NCBI GenBank assembly: GCA_036009605.1
Contig: DASYLL010000458.1
Coordinates: 8,829-72,828 of the forward strand
Reading direction: 5' to 3'
Length of the DNA stretch: 64,000 nt
Source of the DNA: Thermoanaerobaculia bacterium
Lineage (GTDB): Bacteria > Acidobacteriota > Thermoanaerobaculia > Gp7-AA8
Every line of letters begins with the position of its first letter. Position 1 is the first letter of the stretch. Below the pieces are notes generated by a model that was not told where the DNA came from, did no database searches, and saw nothing but the letters and a program-made list of their open reading frames with translations. Both the position numbers and the translations under genes were made by a program. Positions 35,886 through 46,706 of the stretch are shown piece by piece.

Positions 35886-36355
35886 ATGCTGAAGATCTCA
35901 CGACTTACCGACTACGGCCTTCTCGCAGCCGTCTATCTGGCCCGCCACGCGGGCCAGGTGACGGCTGCCCGGGAAATCGCCGAGTTTTATCACCTGCCGG
36001 TCCCGGCGGTGACGAAAGTCCTGAAGGCTCTGCACCACGGCGGACTCGTGCATTCGCACCGCGGGGTTGGCGGCGGATACACGTTCGATGGCGATCCGGA
36101 CGGCATCACGCTCGGACACCTCATCGAAATGCTCGAAGGCCCATGGGATCTCGTCGAGTGCGAGACCTTCGACGACGACGGTCACGCCACCTGCGCGATC
36201 CGCGTCGCATGCCCGTCGCGGCGGTTCATGTTCGGCATCAACCGCGCAATCAAAGGTGCTTTTGAACAAGTCACGCTGGGCGATCTCGTGCGCGGCGGAA
36301 TGCCTCAACCCGTCATCGACAAAACCCAGCTCGCATCATCCGGAGAAGCAGCTCA

Positions 36356-36359
<4 letters not shown>
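35886..36359 (+). CDS. Rrf2-family transcriptional regulator (IscR/SufR-like)
   Basis: N-terminal w[22 protein letters not shown], with Cys ligands in [14 protein letters not shown]; 157 aa. It heads the suf operon. Confidence 0.8.
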
Positions 36360-41522: not shown

Positions 41523-42071
41523 ATGAGAGAAGAAGTCACATTCAGCCGCAGCGCCGAAGCGATCATGATCCCGAGCGGTGAGAAGGTCCTCGTGCCCGTC
41601 GGCGCGCAGGCCACCATCACGCAGTCCCTCGGCGGCACCTACACCGTCATCACCGACCGCGGCCTCATGGTCCGCGTTTCCGGCAAAGAAGTCGAAGCGA
41701 TCGGCAAGTCTGCGACCGACATCGCGGACATCGCCCTTGCCGACATCACTCCCGAGAAGCTCGAGGAGATGGTGTGGGACGCGCTCAAGACCTGCTACGA
41801 CCCGGAGATCCCGGTCAACATCGTCGACCTCGGCCTCGTGTACCTCTGCGAGCTGCAGGACGCCGAAGGCGGCGGCAAGAGCGTGCACATCAAGATGACA
41901 CTCACCGCTCCCGGCTGCGGCATGGGACCGGTGCTCGCGGGTGACGTGCGCTCGAAACTCGTTTCGCTGCCTTCGGTCAAGGATGCCGAAGTGGAAGTCG
42001 TGTTCGATCCGGTGTGGGATCGCAGCATGATGTCCGAGGCGGCGCGGTTGCAGTTGGGCATGATGTGGTGA
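41523..42071 (+). CDS. SufT-like DUF59 (MIP18 family) Fe-S assembly protein with an N-terminal ~80 aa extension
   Basis: C-terminal DUF59 core VWDALKTCYDPEIPVNIVDLGLVY...TAPGCGMG. The N-terminal extension is of unknown function. Confidence 0.65.
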   Translation: MREEVTFSRSAEAIMIPSGEKVLVPVGAQATITQSLGGTYTVITDRGLMVRVSGKEVEAIGKSATDIADIALADITPEKLEEMVWDALKTCYDPEIPVNIVDLGLVYLCELQDAEGGGKSVHIKMTLTAPGCGMGPVLAGDVRSKLVSLPSVKDAEVEVVFDPVWDRSMMSEAARLQLGMMW

Positions 42072-42092
42072 TGCGCGGTTACAATCGCGCCA

Positions 42093-42668
42093 TTGGCCTA
42101 TTGCGCACACTGCGGTAGTCACGTAGCCCAGGTCTCGTTCGTGCCGTGCGCGTCGTGCGGCAATCCGACGAACGGCGCGCCTCCGCGTCCGCCTGCGAAG
42201 AGCGTAAACGTCGCGGCGATCGTGATCGGTGTCGTTGCCGCGGCTCTCGTAGTCGTTGCGATCATCGGAATCCTCGCGGCGATCGCGATCCCGAATTTCG
42301 TCACCGTGATGGAGCGCTCGAAACAGAAGCGCACGATGGCCGACATGCGCCTCGTCGGTCTCGCGCTCGAGAAGTACGGCGAGCACCACCTGCAGGAAGA
42401 GTATCCGCCCGGTCCGACCGTCGCTTCGCTGCGTCCGTTTCTGGAGCCTTCGTACATGACGACCCTGCCGAAGTTCGATGGCTGGTCGAACGACTACATG
42501 TACATGCCACTACCGAATCGCGGGTACGTGATCGTGAGCGGAGGCAAGGACCTGACGTTCGACCATCAGCCCGACGAGTACACGCCCGGAATTATCCCAA
42601 ACTTCGACTGCGACATCGTCTATTCGAACGGTACGTTCGTGCAGTATCCCGGCATTCAGGGACATTGA
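42093..42668 (+). CDS. Chimeric zinc-ribbon :: TM :: pseudopilin (GspG/type IV pilin-like) domain protein
   Basis: N-terminal zinc ribbon CAHCG...CASCG, one TM segment running into a pilin-like helix AIIGILAAIAIPNFVTVMERSKQKRTMADMRLVGLALEKY, and the GspG-like C-terminal FDGWSNDYMYMP...VSGGKD. It lacks the canonical G/FTLIE prepilin cleavage motif. Confidence 0.6.
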   Translation: MAYCAHCGSHVAQVSFVPCASCGNPTNGAPPRPPAKSVNVAAIVIGVVAAALVVVAIIGILAAIAIPNFVTVMERSKQKRTMADMRLVGLALEKYGEHHLQEEYPPGPTVASLRPFLEPSYMTTLPKFDGWSNDYMYMPLPNRGYVIVSGGKDLTFDHQPDEYTPGIIPNFDCDIVYSNGTFVQYPGIQGH

Positions 42669-42671
42669 TCG

Positions 42672-42995
42672 GTGTACTGCACGAACTGCGGCACCGAGCT
42701 TTCCTCCGATGCGATCTCCTGCGCGAGCTGCGGTCAGGCCGTCCCGCATTTCCCACCGCCGCCGAACATCCCGAACTTTCTGGTTCACTCGATCATCGCG
42801 ACGCTCTGTTGCTGCCTTCCGTTCGGAATCGTGGCGGTGATCTTTTCCGCGCAGGTAAACTCGAAGCTCGCCGCGCATGACATCAGCGGCGCGGAAGCGT
42901 CGTCGCGCCGCGCACGGATCTGGGTGATCGTGGCATTCGTCGCCGGAATCCTTGCCTACGCGGGGGCCACGGCACTGACTTTGTGGAGGACTTGA
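42672..42995 (+). CDS. Zinc-ribbon :: CD225/dispanin-like small membrane protein
   Basis: CTNCG...CASCG zinc ribbon, proline linker, then CD225 signature IPNFLVHSIIATLCCCLPFGIVAVIFSAQVNSKLAAHDISGAEASSRRA. Confidence 0.7.
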   Translation: MYCTNCGTELSSDAISCASCGQAVPHFPPPPNIPNFLVHSIIATLCCCLPFGIVAVIFSAQVNSKLAAHDISGAEASSRRARIWVIVAFVAGILAYAGATALTLWRT

Positions 42996-43423
42996 ATTTG
43001 TTTTGTCCGAATTGCAGGACTTCGAATCTCGACAACGCGAGCATCTGCATCAACTGCGGAAAGGCGCTGACGTCGAACACGCCGCACAGCTACACACCAC
43101 CGCCCCCTCCTCCCCGCGCGAACGCGGGCTACGCACCACCACAGCCGTCCAGTGGCGAGTCGATCCCGAACTATCTCGTGCATTCGATCATCGTCACTCT
43201 CTGCTGTTGCATGCCGCTCGGCATCGTGGGGATCGTGTTCGCTGCGCAGGTCAACTCGAAGCTCGCACTCGGCGATTACATGGGTGCGCGCGAAGCATCC
43301 GCGAAAGCGAAGCTCTTCACGATGATCGGCTTCGGCATCGGTCTCGTGGGTGTCGTCATCCTGTTTCTTATGGCGGGAGCCAGCATCATGGAAGCCGTCC
43401 GTGTCGCGATGGAAAATCGCTAG
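42983..43423 (+). CDS. Zinc-ribbon :: CD225/dispanin-like small membrane protein (paralog)
   Basis: CPNCR...CINCG, PPPPPP linker, CD225 signature IPNYLVHSIIVTLCCCMPLGIVGIVFAAQVNSKLALGDYMGAREASAKA. It overlaps the previous gene by 13 bp. Confidence 0.7.
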   Translation: MEDLNLFCPNCRTSNLDNASICINCGKALTSNTPHSYTPPPPPPRANAGYAPPQPSSGESIPNYLVHSIIVTLCCCMPLGIVGIVFAAQVNSKLALGDYMGAREASAKAKLFTMIGFGIGLVGVVILFLMAGASIMEAVRVAMENR

Positions 43424-43757
43424 CGTCATCGTCCTCGGAATCATCGGCGGGTGGGTGCTCTACACCTTCCCGCCGGTCACGACCGCGTTCTATCCGCAGT
43501 GCACGTTCCGGCAGCTCACGGGATTCGATTGTCCCGGCTGCGGCTCCACCCGCGCATTGCACGCGCTTCTGCATGGACGCTTTGCGGAAGCGTTCCGCTT
43601 CAATCCGCTGCTGTTCGCGTTGATGATCGTCGCCGGAATCTCGGTGCCGAGCATGCTTCGCGGTGAGCGTCCGCGCTTTCTCTACACGCGCTGGTTCGGA
43701 TGGGGAGCCGCGATCGTGATCGCGGGTTGGTGGATCGGCCGCAATCTCTACCGGTAG
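43407..43757 (+). CDS. DUF2752 domain membrane protein
   Basis: CPxxxxTGxxCPGCGxTRA signature (CTFRQLTGFDCPGCGSTRALHALLHG). I chose the in-frame GTG at 43407 as the start; the track ORF start at 43350 overlaps the upstream gene by 74 bp. Confidence 0.55.
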   Translation, partial: RWKIASVIVLGIIGGWVLYTFPPVTTAFYPQCTFRQLTGFDCPGCGSTRALHALLHGRFAEAFRFNPLLFALMIVAGISVPSMLRGERPRFLYTRWFGWGAAIVIAGWWIGRNLYR

Positions 43758-43828
43758 TGACGCCTGAAAAGACTACGGGCCGGATGGCAACTGCCACCCG
43801 GCCCGTTTTTCGTTCGTTGCTAACCCGC

Positions 43829-45823
43829 TTATTGCGGCGGAACCGTCAGCGCTTCGACGTTGACGTAGAACCGGAAGAGACCGGTCGTCTGGACGCCGAG
43901 GTTGAACTCGACGACCGTGCTCGCGCCGTTGGCGAGCGGCACAGTCGTCGTGATGATGCCTTCGGCGAGGCTCGAGTTGAGTCCGCCACCGGACGCCTGC
44001 GCTGCCGGCGTCTGAAGCGTCAGAGCCTGCCCGGCAACGGTGGTCGTGTCGGTCAGCGTGATCATCTGAGCCGGCGAGTTGAGCACGCGAAGGTCGGCCT
44101 GTCCCGGAGGCAGCGCAGCGCCGGTGAGCGTCGTGATGTCCGCGATGCGATAGCGCAGAGCGACGACGGGCAGCCCCGTGTTGTTGGTGAAGCGGCGGCG
44201 AATCTTGAGCGTACCGTTCGCGCCGTTGGCGACAGGAGTCAGATCGCGCACGCGATTCGGTGCAGCACTCGAAGCCTGCATCGGGTCGATGATCGCCGCC
44301 GGGAACTGCCCGTTGTGCTCAATGGGTGCGCTCGTCGTGGTGTAGGCCGTCACCGTCGGTCCGCGCTGGGGTCCCGGCGCGCCGAGGGTGGACGAGACGG
44401 TGTCGATGGTCGCGCCGGTCGTGGAGACCAGCGCGAAGTCGGCACTGTTGCTGCCGGTGTCCTGCGGACGTCCGGAAGAAGCAGCCGTGATCTTGCGCAT
44501 CCAGCTGTGCTGTCCGGCGGTGACGATGCCGGCGGCAGGCGAGAGACCGGTTCCCTCTTTGTAGTCAACGTTCGTGACCGAGCTGTAGCCGACCGAGTCG
44601 AGTCGGTTGGCAGTCAGCGCGTCAGCGGTCGAGAAGACGGCGAGACCGACGTCGTCCGGCAGGAAGCCGACCGTCGCGGAAGCCGGGTTGACCCCGACGT
44701 TTGCCATACCGCTCGCGGTGATGCCGGTACCGGTCGGGTACGTGGAGAGACTGTACGTGTTGGCAGCCGGGCTCGGAGTATTCGGCTGCGTCGAGATCAG
44801 GAAATAGCCGCGTGGCGGGATGGCCAGCGGACCTGCGGTCGAGAGGGTCTGCGGCAGGACGAGGAAGGTCGTCTCGGTCGCGCCTTGCGCACCCGCAAAA
44901 CGCCAGCCCGCGCCGGTCACCGAAGTCGGGTCGGCACCCGGGATGGCGTCGATGATGGTGACGCTCGTGTCGGTGTTGTTGTAGATCTCAATGAACTCGT
45001 CGGCGCTGCCGTCCGAGGTGGGAGGCGTGGTGCCCTCGCCGCGCGTGCGGAACTCGCTGATGAGAATATCGCCGGCTGCCGGCGCCGGCGGACGCACGTC
45101 AAACGTAAGGGTCCAGCCGCCGCTGATGCTGCCGCCATCGAGGTTGGCGTCGTCGATGATGTAGAGATCCCACGTTCCGTTCGGCGTGTCGCCGTTGAAA
45201 GCCGAGAGCGTGTAAGTGTAGGGCACGCCGGCCGCGGGCGCGGGGAACACGTCGGTGGTGCCGGAGTTCGCCGGGCGGTAGCTACCGCTGACGAACGGCA
45301 CACCGGTGTTGCCGGTGACGGTCGAGGGCACCGGGCGGGCGGCGTAGTCGTCGAGCGTCACATTGATGCCCGAGACGCCGGGCGAGCCCGCGCCGAAGTC
45401 GGACATGATGACCGACTTGCGTCCAGACGGGGAGACGAGCAGGAAGTCCACGTCTGCCGGGAAGGCATGGCTGAAACCGTTGATCGTGACGGAGACGCGC
45501 TGAATGACGCCGACCTCACCCGAGACCACGATGGGCGCAGGATAGAGCGAGGCGGCCTGACCCGACAGCGGGCACGGATTCGGGCAGTCCGTGATCGTGA
45601 TGGCGGTCGCATTCGTGAACGCGGCCGAGGAGACCATCGGAGGCTGCAGCGTTCGTTTCGGCTTGTTCCCGTTTGGAACAACCGACTGCACCAGGGGGGT
45701 GGGTGCGTCGATCACTGCCGCCGACTTCTGCGCGTACGCGAAGGGCGCGGAGAGCGTCAGCGCAGCCGCAACCGACAGGACGAACCGAGATGAGGAACGC
45801 ATACGGGGGCTATGCATGGACAA
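43829..45823 (-). CDS. Secreted surface protein with proprotein-convertase P-domain-like and lamin-tail-like (LTD) domains
   Basis: Signal peptide SRFVLSVAAALTLSAPFAYAQ, a P-domain-like block VGVIQRVSVTINGFSHAFPADVDFLLVSPSGRKSVIMSD, an LTD-like block DILISEFRTRG...EFIEIYNNTDTSVTI, and a long Thr/Gly/Ala-rich beta-rich remainder. Confidence 0.7.
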   Translation of the reverse strand: MSMHSPRMRSSSRFVLSVAAALTLSAPFAYAQKSAAVIDAPTPLVQSVVPNGNKPKRTLQPPMVSSAAFTNATAITITDCPNPCPLSGQAASLYPAPIVVSGEVGVIQRVSVTINGFSHAFPADVDFLLVSPSGRKSVIMSDFGAGSPGVSGINVTLDDYAARPVPSTVTGNTGVPFVSGSYRPANSGTTDVFPAPAAGVPYTYTLSAFNGDTPNGTWDLYIIDDANLDGGSISGGWTLTFDVRPPAPAAGDILISEFRTRGEGTTPPTSDGSADEFIEIYNNTDTSVTIIDAIPGADPTSVTGAGWRFAGAQGATETTFLVLPQTLSTAGPLAIPPRGYFLISTQPNTPSPAANTYSLSTYPTGTGITASGMANVGVNPASATVGFLPDDVGLAVFSTADALTANRLDSVGYSSVTNVDYKEGTGLSPAAGIVTAGQHSWMRKITAASSGRPQDTGSNSADFALVSTTGATIDTVSSTLGAPGPQRGPTVTAYTTTSAPIEHNGQFPAAIIDPMQASSAAPNRVRDLTPVANGANGTLKIRRRFTNNTGLPVVALRYRIADITTLTGAALPPGQADLRVLNSPAQMITLTDTTTVAGQALTLQTPAAQASGGGLNSSLAEGIITTTVPLANGASTVVEFNLGVQTTGLFRFYVNVEALTVPPQ

Positions 45824-45962: not shown

Positions 45963-46259
45963 CTAGCGGTGAGTGTTGAAAAATGTCCACTCGCCGATCG
46001 CGTGTCCCGCCGCGCGCTGCTTCGCCTGCAAAAAGCCATCGACCGCAGCGAACGCACTGATTGCGAGCGACGCCGTTCCGCATGTCGGAATCGCAACGGC
46101 GAGCGCCGCGATGATGAAGACGATGCCTTTCGTCTTCTGTCCGATCACGATCGAGCCGACACCGAACAGAAAGAGATTCAGCAGCAGGATGAGGATGGGA
46201 TCACCGCCTCCGCCGGAATTCGGCGGAGGCGGTGAAGGGGTTTGCGAATCGAGGGTCAC
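45963..46259 (-). CDS. TM2-like small membrane protein with Pro/Gly-rich N-terminus
   Basis: PSPPPPNSGGGG N-terminus followed by two TM helices (ILLLNLFLFGVGSIVIGQKTKGIVFIIAALAV), resembling the TM2 domain. Confidence 0.5.
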   Translation of the reverse strand: MTLDSQTPSPPPPNSGGGGDPILILLLNLFLFGVGSIVIGQKTKGIVFIIAALAVAIPTCGTASLAISAFAAVDGFLQAKQRAAGHAIGEWTFFNTHR

Positions 46260-46262
46260 CGA

Positions 46263-46706
46263 CTAGAAGTTGATCTTCTGGCCGAGGTCCGTCAGCACGG
46301 GCACGGTGAAGCGCTTGCCGCCGACACCCTGAACGATGCAGATGACGCGGAGCACGAGGAAACCGATCCAGATGACGCAATTGATGATGCCGATGCCGCA
46401 GCCGGCGACGTTCGGCAGCACGAAGGTGAGGACCGTGACGACGATCCAGACCAGGATCTCGCCGATGAGGATGCCGAGGCCGTTCTTCGCGTGCCACTGC
46501 ACTTCGGAGTCTTCTTTCTTCGTGAGCAGCGGAATCAGCGCGAGGATCCAGAGATACGACAGCACGACCATCAACGTGCGATCTCCGCTCGCAGGGGCGC
46601 CAAAACCGGAGCCTCCGGGCGGAGGGGGCGGTGGCGGTGTATACGATCCGCCGCCGGGAGGGGGCGGAACAGCCGGCGGTACGGTGGGCGGGGGAATCTC
46701 GCTCAT
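46263..46706 (-). CDS. DUF4870 domain membrane protein with proline-rich N-terminus
   Basis: PPPTVPPAVPPPPGGGSYTPPPPPPPGG N-terminus, then DUF4870-like core LSYLWILALIPLLTKKEDSEVQWHAKNGLGIL. Confidence 0.65.
   Translation of the reverse strand: MSEIPPPTVPPAVPPPPGGGSYTPPPPPPPGGSGFGAPASGDRTLMVVLSYLWILALIPLLTKKEDSEVQWHAKNGLGILIGEILVWIVVTVLTFVLPNVAGCGIGIINCVIWIGFLVLRVICIVQGVGGKRFTVPVLTDLGQKINF

What the first reader, a model, noticed from the sequence alone, without database searches (positions are those of the whole stretch)
42093..42668. Pseudopilin-like domain with a zinc-ribbon N-terminus instead of a class III prepilin signal
The C-terminal 110 aa look like a GspG/type IV pilin globular domain, including the alpha1C helix AIIGILAAIAIPNF...MADMRLVGLALEKY and a DGW..Y.Y.P...SGGKD tail. 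The canonical G|FTLIEL cleavage and N-methylation motif is replaced by a cytoplasmic C4 zinc ribbon plus an uncleaved TM helix. Such a protein could not be processed by prepilin peptidase. It would sit as a type II membrane protein displaying a pilin head, an unusual architecture.
Basis: partly seen in the sequence, partly recalled or inferred. Interest (0 to 1): 0.6.

Follow-up and report, generated by a model that had tools for sequence, protein, structure and literature searches.

The report
Zinc-ribbon-anchored, uncleavable pseudopilin-like membrane protein
This gene encodes a protein whose outer part is a genuine relative of the pilus-building protein GspG, but the signal that lets such proteins be cut and built into a filament is replaced by a cytoplasmic zinc finger and a longer membrane anchor; this undescribed design is widespread in uncultured Acidobacteriota.

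Summary
ORF 42093-42668 (+, TTG start, 191 aa) has three parts:
- an N-terminal C4-x2-C7-x11-C19-x2-C22 zinc ribbon;
- a 32-residue hydrophobic helix that ends in the pilin motif GILAAIAIPN;
- a head that matches only GspG-type pseudopilins among solved structures.

The class III signal is gone. In 22-23 canonical relatives G-1, F+1 and E+5 are all 100% conserved. In 150 zinc-ribbon forms G-1 and E+5 are at 0%. No other start or frame gives a prepilin leader.

The zinc ribbon is under purifying selection, and its four cysteines are invariant in divergent relatives. The architecture fills dozens of 50%-identity clusters, which databases auto-label "GspG/PulG". I found no paper describing it.

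The gene is the first of a conserved cassette: pilin-like gene, one or two zinc-ribbon-CD225 genes, then DUF2752. At least 21 loci show it, and it survives rearrangement. No T2SS or T4P genes are nearby.

Most likely this is a non-polymerising membrane protein with its N-terminus inside and a pseudopilin head in the periplasm, working with the CD225 and DUF2752 proteins. Its function is unknown. I rate it a new variant of a known kind, of moderate to high interest.

The parts
42080..42085 (+). TACAAT, a -10-like box upstream of the gene
   Evidence: A (G/C)(T)TACAAT(C/T) motif is conserved upstream of the orthologous gene in L001, L064, L066, L068 and L076, usually 28-45 nt before the start. 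In the window it lies only 7 nt before the TTG. The consensus promoter scan found no full sigma-70 site. Promoter function is inferred, not shown.
42093..42668 (+). Whole ORF: zinc-ribbon-anchored pseudopilin-like protein, 191 aa, TTG start, TGA stop
   Evidence: There are 3529 database relatives at E<=1e-3 and 5140 50%-identity cluster representatives at E<=1e-3, of which 815 reach 1e-10.
42093..42182 (+). Cytoplasmic C4 zinc ribbon (residues 1-30; C4, C7, C19, C22; ends NGAP)
   Evidence: The Cys residues are at least 90% conserved and invariant in divergent forms. Selection is purifying. AF2 pLDDT is about 90 with short beta strands. hhalign to the zinc ribbon of the neighbouring CD225 proteins gives probability 83%, E 8e-6. 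Pfam zinc-ribbon models give only sub-threshold hits for this protein itself.
42183..42203 (+). Pro-rich, basic linker (residues 31-37, PRPPAKS)
   Evidence: Read from the sequence. It is variable in relatives.
42204..42299 (+). Long hydrophobic helix (residues 38-69). The N-terminal half is a generic TM anchor. The C-terminal half is the retained pilin alpha1N segment G14..P22-N23 (IIGILAAIAIPNF).
   Evidence: The hydrophobic run upstream of P22 has a median of 27 residues in zinc-ribbon forms versus 16 in canonical relatives. G14 is 90%, A17 is 91%, and P22-N23 is kept in about 72 of 78 representative zinc-ribbon forms. AF2 predicts a continuous helix over residues 40-98.
42300..42665 (+). 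Alpha1C helix plus GspG-like globular head (residues 70-191; motifs QKRTMADMR, DGW, SGGKD, NFDCDIV)
   Evidence: The head-only profile hits only GspG-family chains in PDB. TIGR01710 gives E 4.8e-10. Relatives pass Pfam T2SSG.
42672..42995 (+). Operon partner 1: zinc-ribbon + CD225 (IFITM-like) membrane protein, 107 aa, starting 3 nt after the pilin-like stop
   Evidence: Pfam CD225 E 5.5e-24 and Zn_Ribbon_1 E 3.4e-6. It is a conserved neighbour.
42983..43423 (+). Operon partner 2: second zinc-ribbon + CD225 protein, 146 aa
   Evidence: Pfam CD225 E 9.6e-24 and Zn_Ribbon_1 E 8.9e-7. It is present in some orthologous loci and absent in others.
43350..43757 (+). Operon partner 3: DUF2752 small membrane protein. 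The likely start is GTG at 43401, giving 118 aa.
   Evidence: Pfam DUF2752 E 2.7e-21. The database gene call of 118 aa is 100% identical. An invariant motif C..CPGCG..R..H...H is present. AF2 gives pLDDT 93.9 with three long helices and no PDB match.
43775..43806 (.). GC-rich 14-bp hairpin between the cassette and the convergent gene; probable terminator
   Evidence: It is listed on the minus strand with a T-run. It lies 18 nt after the DUF2752 stop. Its function is inferred.

Best explanation
The gene encodes a bitopic inner-membrane protein with its N-terminus in the cytoplasm and its C-terminus in the periplasm. It derives from the GspG-like ("KQKRTMAD") pilin family of Acidobacteriota.

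The short basic leader, G-1, F+1 and E+5 of the class III signal have been replaced. In their place are a cytoplasmic C4 zinc ribbon, a Pro-rich linker and about 10 extra hydrophobic residues. As a result:
- prepilin peptidase has no site to cut;
- there is no free N-methyl-Phe1 or Glu5 to register the subunit in a filament;
- the folded zinc ribbon and longer anchor should keep the protein in the membrane.

The protein therefore displays a pseudopilin head on the periplasmic face instead of polymerising.

It is made together with one or two zinc-ribbon-CD225 proteins and a DUF2752 protein. It most likely forms a small membrane complex with them, in which the pilin-like head is the only sizeable periplasmic domain.

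The pilin helix segment G14-P22-N23 remains nearly invariant. This suggests it still makes a pilin-type helix-helix contact in the membrane, with its cassette partners or with canonical pilins or their assembly platform.

Shown here: the architecture, loss of the signal, conservation, homology of the head, and the gene cassette.
Inferred: the topology, non-cleavage, the complex, and any link to pili.
For: Homology of the head to GspG. Structure model.

Loss of the class III signature while G14/P22 are kept.

Zinc ribbon conserved and under purifying selection. The 150-165-aa database entries are start miscalls, since L076 has the ribbon in frame upstream.

Cassette:
- Of the zinc-ribbon forms with at least 400 nt of downstream sequence, 21 have both CD225 and DUF2752. 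Three more have CD225 before the contig ends.
- Only 1 of 94 canonical-leader relatives has CD225 next to it.
- Stop and start codons abut.
- The link persists when the upstream suf operon is separated (L064, L092).
- It also persists when the CD225-DUF2752 pair lies on the opposite strand (L074).

All three protein types in the cassette carry the same kind of N-terminal zinc ribbon or a CxxC motif.

The head is periplasmic in other fusions:
- a TonB_C fusion (P0225);
- tandem heads behind signal peptides (P0163, P0176, P0215);
- a cytoplasmic ParA-like P-loop before the TM helix (P0224).

Canonical relatives sit beside PilT and PilC (L005), whereas no T2SS/T4P genes flank the zinc-ribbon forms.
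Against: - Nothing here shows the protein's topology, metal content or processing state.
- The cassette association comes largely from one clade with conserved synteny (head identity down to about 40%), so the loci are not independent. More divergent zinc-ribbon paralogues (L070, L072, L073, L075, L101) have no CD225 or DUF2752 nearby.
- One orthologue in the same cassette (P0120/L069) carries a perfectly canonical leader, MRKSQG|FTVVEL. The cassette therefore does not strictly need the zinc-ribbon form.
- Strong conservation of G14-P22 would also fit continued participation in a filament.
- The C-terminal flank of the TM helix is more basic than the N-terminal flank. This is also true of canonical pilins, but it weakens a simple positive-inside argument.
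Confidence: 0.6

Rival explanations
1. It is still part of a type IV filament. It would be incorporated uncleaved as the last, membrane-retained subunit (an anchor or stop subunit at the base of a pilus or pseudopilus). Alternatively it would dock as a pilin mimic on the assembly platform or among membrane pilins, to regulate assembly or report the pilin pool.
For: - The alpha1N segment G14-I-(L/I)-A-A-I-A-I-P22-N23 is almost as conserved in zinc-ribbon forms as in canonical pilins, while the rest of the anchor drifts.
- The head is 58-60% identical to that of a canonical-leader orthologue.
- In a head tree the N-terminus types are intermixed. 13 of 24 canonical heads have a zinc-ribbon form as nearest neighbour, so the two forms stay functionally close.
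- Canonical relatives lie next to PilT and PilC.
- From my own knowledge, not tested here: P. aeruginosa PilA regulates PilS through intramembrane contacts of its alpha1N. That is a precedent for non-filament roles of this helix.
Against: - There is no E5 and no free N-terminus, both of which are used for subunit registration.
- No pilus genes lie within 6-10 kb in 10 loci.
- Heads also occur with no pilin helix at all, in tandem arrays. The head therefore has a filament-independent use.
Confidence: 0.2
2. The zinc ribbon plus TM helix is only an export and anchoring device that is removed afterwards by signal peptidase I or another protease. The GspG-like head would then act as a soluble or lipid-anchored periplasmic protein.
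For: - Relatives exist with a plain signal or lipobox-like N-terminus (L003, MRRWWLWIPLVIFGAC...).
- Relatives exist as secreted tandem heads (P0163, P0176, P0215).
- The helix ends in small residues (A-I-A), which could resemble an AxA site.
Against: - The same AIAIP sequence in canonical pilins is not a signal peptidase I site, and Pro follows closely.
- The zinc ribbon is under strong purifying selection and is invariant across 30%-identity relatives. That is unexpected for a disposable leader.
- No cleavage predictor was available here.
Confidence: 0.12
3. It is an artefact: a canonical gspG with a mis-set start, a pseudogene, or a chance resemblance.
For: - Gene callers often start these genes downstream (175-aa and 150-165-aa entries).
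- The window copy has a TTG start and no Shine-Dalgarno sequence, with only 7 nt after a -10-like box.
Against: - No prepilin motif occurs in any frame.
- The upstream zinc ribbon is in frame and conserved in every relative checked.
- Thousands of homologues share the architecture.
- The E-values to GspG are significant.
Confidence: 0.03

Closest known systems
GspG / PulG / EpsG / XcpT, the major pseudopilin of the type II secretion system (TIGR01710, Pfam PF08334 T2SSG)
   Same: The alpha1C helix and head are homologous, with shared motifs (K/R)QK..(S/A)D, DxWG..Y, SxGxDG and D.DI. The retained alpha1N segment keeps G14 and P22. The head-only profile hits only this family in PDB.
   Different: - No class III signal peptide: G-1, F+1 and E+5 are all absent.
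- An extra cytoplasmic zinc ribbon and a longer anchor.
- Scores below both curated cut-offs: 39.6 versus 88.85 bits, and 15.3 versus 21 bits.
- Not encoded in a gsp operon.
- Sits in a cassette with CD225 and DUF2752.
Canonical 'KQKRTMAD' prepilins of Acidobacteriota, e.g. P0120, L005, L006, L008-L012 (M(R/K)..KG|FTLIELLIVVAIIGIIAAIAIPNLL...)
   Same: Same head subfamily (40-60% identity) and identical alpha1N residues 14-25. P0120 even occupies the same cassette position.
   Different: They have a perfect prepilin leader. They often occur in tandem and next to PilT and PilC. Only 1 of 94 lies next to CD225.
Type IVa major pilins (e.g. M. xanthus PilA 8tj2, Geobacter PilA-N)
   Same: This is the best PDB match for the hydrophobic and alpha1 helix region (E 7.6e-11).
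   Different: The similarity is limited to the helix. The head is GspG-like, and there is no N-methylation signal.
Zinc-ribbon (PF13240)-TM-ectodomain membrane proteins, such as S. aureus TcaA and the neighbouring zinc-ribbon-CD225 proteins
   Same: An N-terminal CxxC..CxxC ribbon, a Pro-rich linker and a single TM helix, followed by an extracytoplasmic domain. The ribbons are homologous by profile-profile comparison.
   Different: Here the ectodomain is a pseudopilin head, and the TM helix is half pilin helix. The role of such ribbons is itself unknown.
CD225/IFITM (dispanin) family and DUF2752
   Same: They are operon partners, not homologues of the protein. All are small membrane proteins with Cys-rich cytoplasmic motifs.
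   Different: There is no sequence or profile similarity beyond the zinc ribbon. Bacterial CD225 and DUF2752 have no established function, and the literature search found nothing.

Membership tests
T2SS major pseudopilin GspG (TIGR01710 / PF08334) | Class III (prepilin) signal: short basic leader, Gly at -1, Phe/Met at +1, Glu at +5 | tested here: not met
   Position-wise comparison anchored on P22. In canonical relatives G-1, F+1 and E+5 are each 100% (n=23). In zinc-ribbon forms G-1 is 0% and E+5 is 0% (n=150; representatives-only n=58). No motif occurs in any frame of the window. Pfam N_methyl is not among the hits at E<=1.
T2SS major pseudopilin GspG (TIGR01710 / PF08334) | Head and alpha1C homologous to GspG | tested here: met
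   TIGR01710 gives E 4.8e-10. The PDB profile hits PulG at 7.9e-10. The head-only profile hits 8 chains, all GspG-family. Relatives reach Pfam T2SSG at 26-105 bits.
T2SS major pseudopilin GspG (TIGR01710 / PF08334) | Scores above the curated family cut-offs | tested here: not met
   TIGR01710 scores 39.6 bits against a cut-off of 88.85. PF08334 scores 15.3 bits against a cut-off of 21.
T2SS major pseudopilin GspG (TIGR01710 / PF08334) | Encoded with T2SS core genes (GspD/E/F, minor pseudopilins, GspO) | tested here: not met
   None were seen in the 64-kb window, judged only from N-terminal sequences of GC3-selected ORFs. None appear in the Pfam-annotated flanks of L064, L066, L068, L072-L076. 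The rest of the genome was not available.
T2SS major pseudopilin GspG (TIGR01710 / PF08334) | Cleaved and N-methylated by prepilin peptidase; polymerises into a pseudopilus | not testable with these tools
   This needs biochemistry. Sequence argues against it.
Type IV pilin superfamily (structural definition) | Long N-terminal alpha1 helix with a hydrophobic N-half (G14, P22) packed on a C-terminal beta-sheet | tested here: met
Zinc-ribbon (PF13240/PF13248-type) N-terminal module | Two CxxC knuckles 10-20 residues apart at the extreme N-terminus, conserved across relatives | tested here: met
   The pattern is C4-x2-C7-x11-C19-x2-C22. The Cys are at least 90% conserved and invariant in the divergent set. 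hhalign to the CD225 ribbons gives probability 83%. Many relatives carry a precomputed PF13240 hit.
Zinc-ribbon (PF13240/PF13248-type) N-terminal module | Passes the Pfam gathering score; binds zinc | tested here: not met
   This protein scores 11.9 bits on Zn_ribbon_3 against a cut-off of 27, and PF13240 is not listed. Metal binding cannot be tested here, and Fe (rubredoxin-like) cannot be excluded.
Pilin-like / CD225 / DUF2752 cassette (defined here) | Zinc-ribbon pilin-like gene immediately followed by, or adjacent to, zinc-ribbon-CD225 gene(s) and a DUF2752 gene | tested here: met
   In the window the genes lie at 42093-43757 with 3-nt and overlapping junctions. 21 related loci carry both partners. 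L074 has a divergent arrangement.

The most novel reading that the evidence does not exclude
Acidobacteriota, above all Thermoanaerobaculia, may have turned the pseudopilin subunit into a non-filament, membrane-tethered periplasmic module. The prepilin signal would have been swapped repeatedly for zinc-ribbon anchors, multi-TM modules, a ParA-like ATPase or TonB_C.

In the lineage of this window, the tethered pilin would be the periplasmic arm of a previously unrecognised complex with bacterial IFITM-like (CD225) and DUF2752 proteins. That complex would either act on the envelope independently of pili, or couple to the type IV pilus machine through the retained G14-P22 helix as an anchor, stop or sensor subunit.
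Probability: 0.3. Interest if true: 0.75.

Novelty: new variant of a known kind. Interest (0 to 1): 0.6.

Why it matters
Type IV pilins and pseudopilins are defined by their class III signal peptide. Every described member is cut by a prepilin peptidase and is at least potentially a filament subunit.

A large, conserved family keeps the pilin helix and GspG head but has exchanged that signal for an uncleavable zinc-ribbon anchor. This shows the pilin fold has a second life outside filaments. It also means automatic "GspG/PulG" labels over-count secretion or pilus systems in Acidobacteriota metagenomes.

The family gives the first genomic handle on bacterial CD225 (IFITM-like) and DUF2752 proteins, which have no known function. 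It also offers a natural experiment on which parts of alpha1N are needed for membrane-level interactions rather than for polymerisation. Positions 14-23 are kept, while positions 1-13, including F1 and E5, are free to drift.

Tried and rejected
- The genome-contig scan was saturated by canonical pilins, because the search patterns were the shared pilin motifs. It returned only one full-length zinc-ribbon form, L001.
- I tested whether the ~110-aa multi-TM module found in longer relatives is a fused CD225 or DUF2752, as a Rosetta-stone argument. hhalign aligns only the zinc ribbon, so I rejected the idea.
- I tested whether DUF2752 resembles a prepilin peptidase, another protease or an oxidoreductase. 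Pfam at E<=10, a PDB sequence profile and Foldseek-PDB on a pLDDT-94 model all gave nothing. This remains unresolved.
- PADLOC gave no hits for the four cassette proteins. PHROGs gave only generic pilin-helix and zinc-ribbon hits. There is no sign of a defence or phage origin.
- Literature searches returned nothing relevant. The queries were pseudopilin + zinc ribbon, pilin-like + zinc ribbon, DUF2752, DUF2752 + CD225, PF08334, T2SSG, and pilin without a class III signal. The CpaL paper (PMC11870444) describes a pilin-like module that does have a predicted peptidase site.
- The listing of cluster members gave no organism names.
- I considered a functional link to the upstream suf (Fe-S assembly) operon and set it aside. 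Adjacency is frequent, but it is broken in L064, L092 and L074 while the CD225/DUF2752 link remains. A conserved -10-like box also separates the cassette from suf.
- I considered a cryptic peptidase site at the Gly that occupies position +1 in 55% of zinc-ribbon forms. That Gly is not conserved, lies 6-7 residues inside the hydrophobic stretch, and has no Glu at +5. I rejected it.
Full report
**What is at the coordinates**

The ORF 42093..42668 (+) is real. It opens at TTG, the first start codon after an in-frame TGA at 42069-42071, and encodes 191 aa. The protein reads as follows:
- M/L-AYC4AHC7GSHVAQVSFVPC19ASC22GNPTNGAP, a CxxC-x11-CxxC knuckle pair;
- a short Pro-rich basic linker (PRPPAKS);
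- an unbroken hydrophobic stretch over residues 38-69 (VNVAAIVIGVVAAALVVVAIIGILAAIAIPNF);
- ...ERSKQKRTMADMR... and a roughly 120-residue head.

The window has 62.8% GC. The ORF has the GC3 bias of real genes there (0.79).

**Is the pilin similarity real?**

Yes.
- NCBIfam TIGR01710 (GspG) matches residues 52-153 to profile positions 9-118 of 134, with E 4.8e-10. The match begins just after the positions that hold G|FTLIE.
- A profile of 60 family members hits M. xanthus PilA (7.6e-11), PulG 5wda (7.9e-10), and soluble GspG constructs that lack the hydrophobic helix (3g20 at 2.5e-6, 3gn9 at 3.5e-4).
- A profile of the head alone, from N68 onward, hits eight PDB sequences. All are GspG/EpsG/PulG/XcpT (4e-6 to 1e-3).
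- Relatives pass Pfam T2SSG's gathering score. The window protein itself does not: 15.3 versus 21 bits on Pfam, and 39.6 versus 88.85 bits on TIGR01710.

**Is the prepilin signal really missing?**

Yes. I anchored sequences on the invariant Pro22.
- In 22-23 canonical relatives, G-1, F+1 and E+5 are each 100%.
- In 150 zinc-ribbon forms (58 when only 50%-identity representatives are used), G-1 and E+5 are 0%. Positions -1 to 13 are merely hydrophobic, with 1.7-2.9 bits of entropy.
- The hydrophobic run before P22 lengthens from 16 to a median of 27 residues.
- A Gly occupies position +1 in 55% of zinc-ribbon forms. It is not conserved, lies inside the hydrophobic stretch, and has no Glu downstream.
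- No G[FMY][TS]xxE motif exists in any of the six frames of the window. The alternative frames at the locus are closed.

By contrast, G14 (90%), A17-A20, P22 and N23 remain nearly invariant in about 72 of 78 representative zinc-ribbon forms.

**Is the zinc ribbon translated and conserved?**

Yes.
- The four cysteines are at least 90% conserved among 60 close relatives. They are invariant among 16 forms that share only 30-48% identity.
- Against the six closest loci, the first 30 codons show 8-12 synonymous but only 1-3 non-synonymous codon changes. Over 22 loci, differences by codon position are 114:98:294.
- The TTG start is shared by seven loci and aligns with ATG in the rest.
- Database entries of 150-175 aa that seem to lack the ribbon are start miscalls. 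For P0110 the ribbon lies in frame upstream, directly after a TGA.
- Profile-profile comparison aligns the ribbon with the PF13240-type ribbon of the neighbouring CD225 proteins (probability 83%). For the longer relatives the probability is 96.9%.

**How common is the architecture, and where is it found?**

The protein has 3529 relatives at E<=1e-3 in the 90%-identity clustered database. It has 5140 representatives at E<=1e-3 in the 50%-identity clustered one, of which 815 reach 1e-10.

The 150 best representatives break down as follows:
- 52 are zinc ribbon + TM + head;
- at least 20 are zinc ribbon + a ~110-aa multi-TM module + head;
- 25 have a canonical prepilin leader;
- the rest are short calls or other fusions.

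Those other fusions include:
- tandem heads without any anchor (P0163, P0176, P0215);
- a ParA/MinD-like P-loop domain before the TM helix (P0224);
- a C-terminal TonB_C domain (P0225);
- DUF3352-like N-terminal domains.

Named sources are Thermoanaerobaculia and other Acidobacteriota MAGs, where NCBI and JGI call them "GspG/PulG". Many entries carry precomputed Pfam Zn_Ribbon_1 + T2SSG hits. A distance tree of heads mixes the N-terminus types: 13 of 24 canonical heads have a zinc-ribbon form as nearest neighbour. Two syntenic orthologues differ only by the multi-TM module (P0333 versus P0344). The N-terminal part is therefore a frequently exchanged module. I found no paper that describes any of this.

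**Genomic context**

In the window the gene follows the suf operon: an Rrf2 regulator, then SufB, SufC, SufD, SufS, SufU and DUF59. It is followed, 3 nt after its stop, by:
- a zinc-ribbon-CD225 gene (42672-42995);
- a second one (42983-43423);
- a DUF2752 gene (43350/43401-43757);
- a GC-rich hairpin.

The same order recurs in L001 (a Thermoanaerobaculia MAG, 45% identity) and in L064, L066, L068 and L076, as well as in many metagenome loci.

I scanned all 156 fetched loci with the window's proteins.
- Among zinc-ribbon forms with at least 400 nt of downstream sequence, 21 have both CD225 and DUF2752. Three more have CD225 before the contig ends.
- Only 1 of 94 canonical-leader relatives has CD225 next to it. 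That one, P0120/L069, is an orthologue with a perfect leader (MRKSQG|FTVVEL) in the same cassette.

The cassette link holds up where the suf link does not. In L064 and L092 another gene separates suf from the cassette. In L074 a divergent zinc-ribbon form faces a CD225-DUF2752 pair on the other strand. A conserved TACAAT box lies upstream of the gene in six loci.

More distant zinc-ribbon paralogues are orphans with unrelated neighbours. Canonical relatives occur in tandem and, in L005, directly after PilT- and PilC-like genes. No pilus or T2SS gene was seen in the window or in the annotated flanks. The rest of the genome could not be examined.

**Partners**

The CD225 proteins are clear Pfam members (E about 1e-23) with N-terminal zinc ribbons.

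DUF2752 has an invariant motif, C-x9-CPGCG-x2-R-x2-H-x3-H. It gives a confident three-helix membrane model (pLDDT 93.9). It has no Pfam relative, no PDB sequence match and no PDB fold match. None of the four cassette proteins matches a known defence family.

**Most likely mechanism**

Shown here:
- a GspG-type head and half a pilin helix are fused to a conserved cytoplasmic-type zinc ribbon through a lengthened hydrophobic helix;
- every determinant of prepilin peptidase cleavage and of subunit registration (G-1, F+1, E+5) is absent;
- the gene is co-encoded with CD225 and DUF2752 membrane proteins.

Inferred:
- The ribbon stays in the cytoplasm and the head is periplasmic. This fits the TonB_C, signal-peptide and ParA-like fusions in relatives.
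- The protein is neither cut nor extracted into a filament.
- It acts as the periplasmic arm of a small membrane complex with its cassette partners.
- The near-invariant G14-P22-N23 segment points to a retained pilin-type helix contact in the membrane. The partner in that contact is unknown.

Rival explanations:
- continued participation in a filament as an uncleaved basal or stop subunit, or as a platform-docking mimic (about 0.2);
- proteolytic release of the head (about 0.12);
- artefact (about 0.03).

**Comparison and novelty**

The protein works like, and descends from, a GspG-type pseudopilin. It fails the defining membership tests of that family: signal peptide, curated score cut-offs and operon context. 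It should therefore not be filed as GspG.

It is best described as a new variant of a known kind: a zinc-ribbon-anchored, uncleavable pseudopilin-like protein. It belongs to a wider and apparently undescribed radiation, in which Acidobacteriota attach the pseudopilin head to various non-pilin anchors.

I score interest at 0.6. A pilus specialist would be surprised by a conserved pilin without a class III signal. The family also gives a testable entry point to bacterial CD225 and DUF2752 proteins. Its function, however, remains unknown.

Noticed in passing
window 42080-42095: A conserved TACAAT (-10-like) box lies upstream of the gene in six loci. In the window it sits only 7 nt before the TTG start, with no GGAG Shine-Dalgarno, whereas relatives have a 28-45-nt leader containing GGAG. 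The window copy seems to have lost most of its 5'UTR and could be nearly leaderless.
   Followed up: partly
P0139, P0145, P0150, P0151, P0344 and at least 15 more clusters (no window coordinates): A ~110-aa multi-TM module is inserted between the zinc ribbon and the pilin helix. Its consensus is RPG.ITLLAVL.F...G.GLW.L...GRT.QI......GLL.FPLGTIISILIL.YL..PG.K.LFSG. It has no Pfam hit and is not related to CD225 or DUF2752 by hhalign. Syntenic orthologues P0333 and P0344 differ only by this module.
   Followed up: partly
P0163, P0176, P0215, P0127, P0224, P0225, P0237, P0267, P0270: The same GspG-like head occurs in several other arrangements: 2-5 tandem copies behind signal peptides with no pilin helix, after a ParA/MinD-type P-loop domain, before a TonB_C domain, and after DUF3352-like domains.
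   Followed up: partly
window 43401-43757: DUF2752 carries an invariant motif, C-x9-C-P-G-C-G-x2-R-x2-H-x3-H, a possible metal site. Its AF2 model is confident (pLDDT 93.9, three long helices). It has no sequence or fold match in PDB.
   Followed up: yes
L003 6049-6483: A Thermoanaerobaculia relative has the head behind a plain signal or lipobox-like N-terminus (MRRWWLWIPLVIFGAC...VVVPNVMTAMDRSKQKRTMADLR). It has neither a prepilin leader nor a zinc ribbon.
   Followed up: no
window 35886-36359; L073 374-814; L075 999-1478; P0344 locus 237-671: An Rrf2-family regulator gene lies within about 5 kb of several otherwise unrelated zinc-ribbon pilin-like loci, and also heads the suf operon upstream of the window gene. 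This could be coincidence or shared regulation.
   Followed up: no
window 43829-45823 (-): A 664-aa ORF with a signal-peptide-like N-terminus lies between the cassette and the conserved downstream genes. It is absent from the syntenic loci L064, L066, L068 and L076, so it is probably a lineage-specific insertion.
   Followed up: no
window 45963-46259 (-) and 46263-46706 (-): Two small membrane proteins with Pro-rich N-termini (PPPGGGSYTPPPPPPP...) are conserved at this position in related loci. One is annotated MamF_MmsF in L066 and L068. The neighbourhood is rich in small Pro-rich membrane proteins.
   Followed up: no
L005 5917-7048, and P0271: Canonical KQKRTMAD prepilins occur as tandem near-identical copies directly downstream of PilT- and PilC-like genes in an Acidobacteriota MAG. 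This shows what the ancestral context of the head family looks like.
   Followed up: partly
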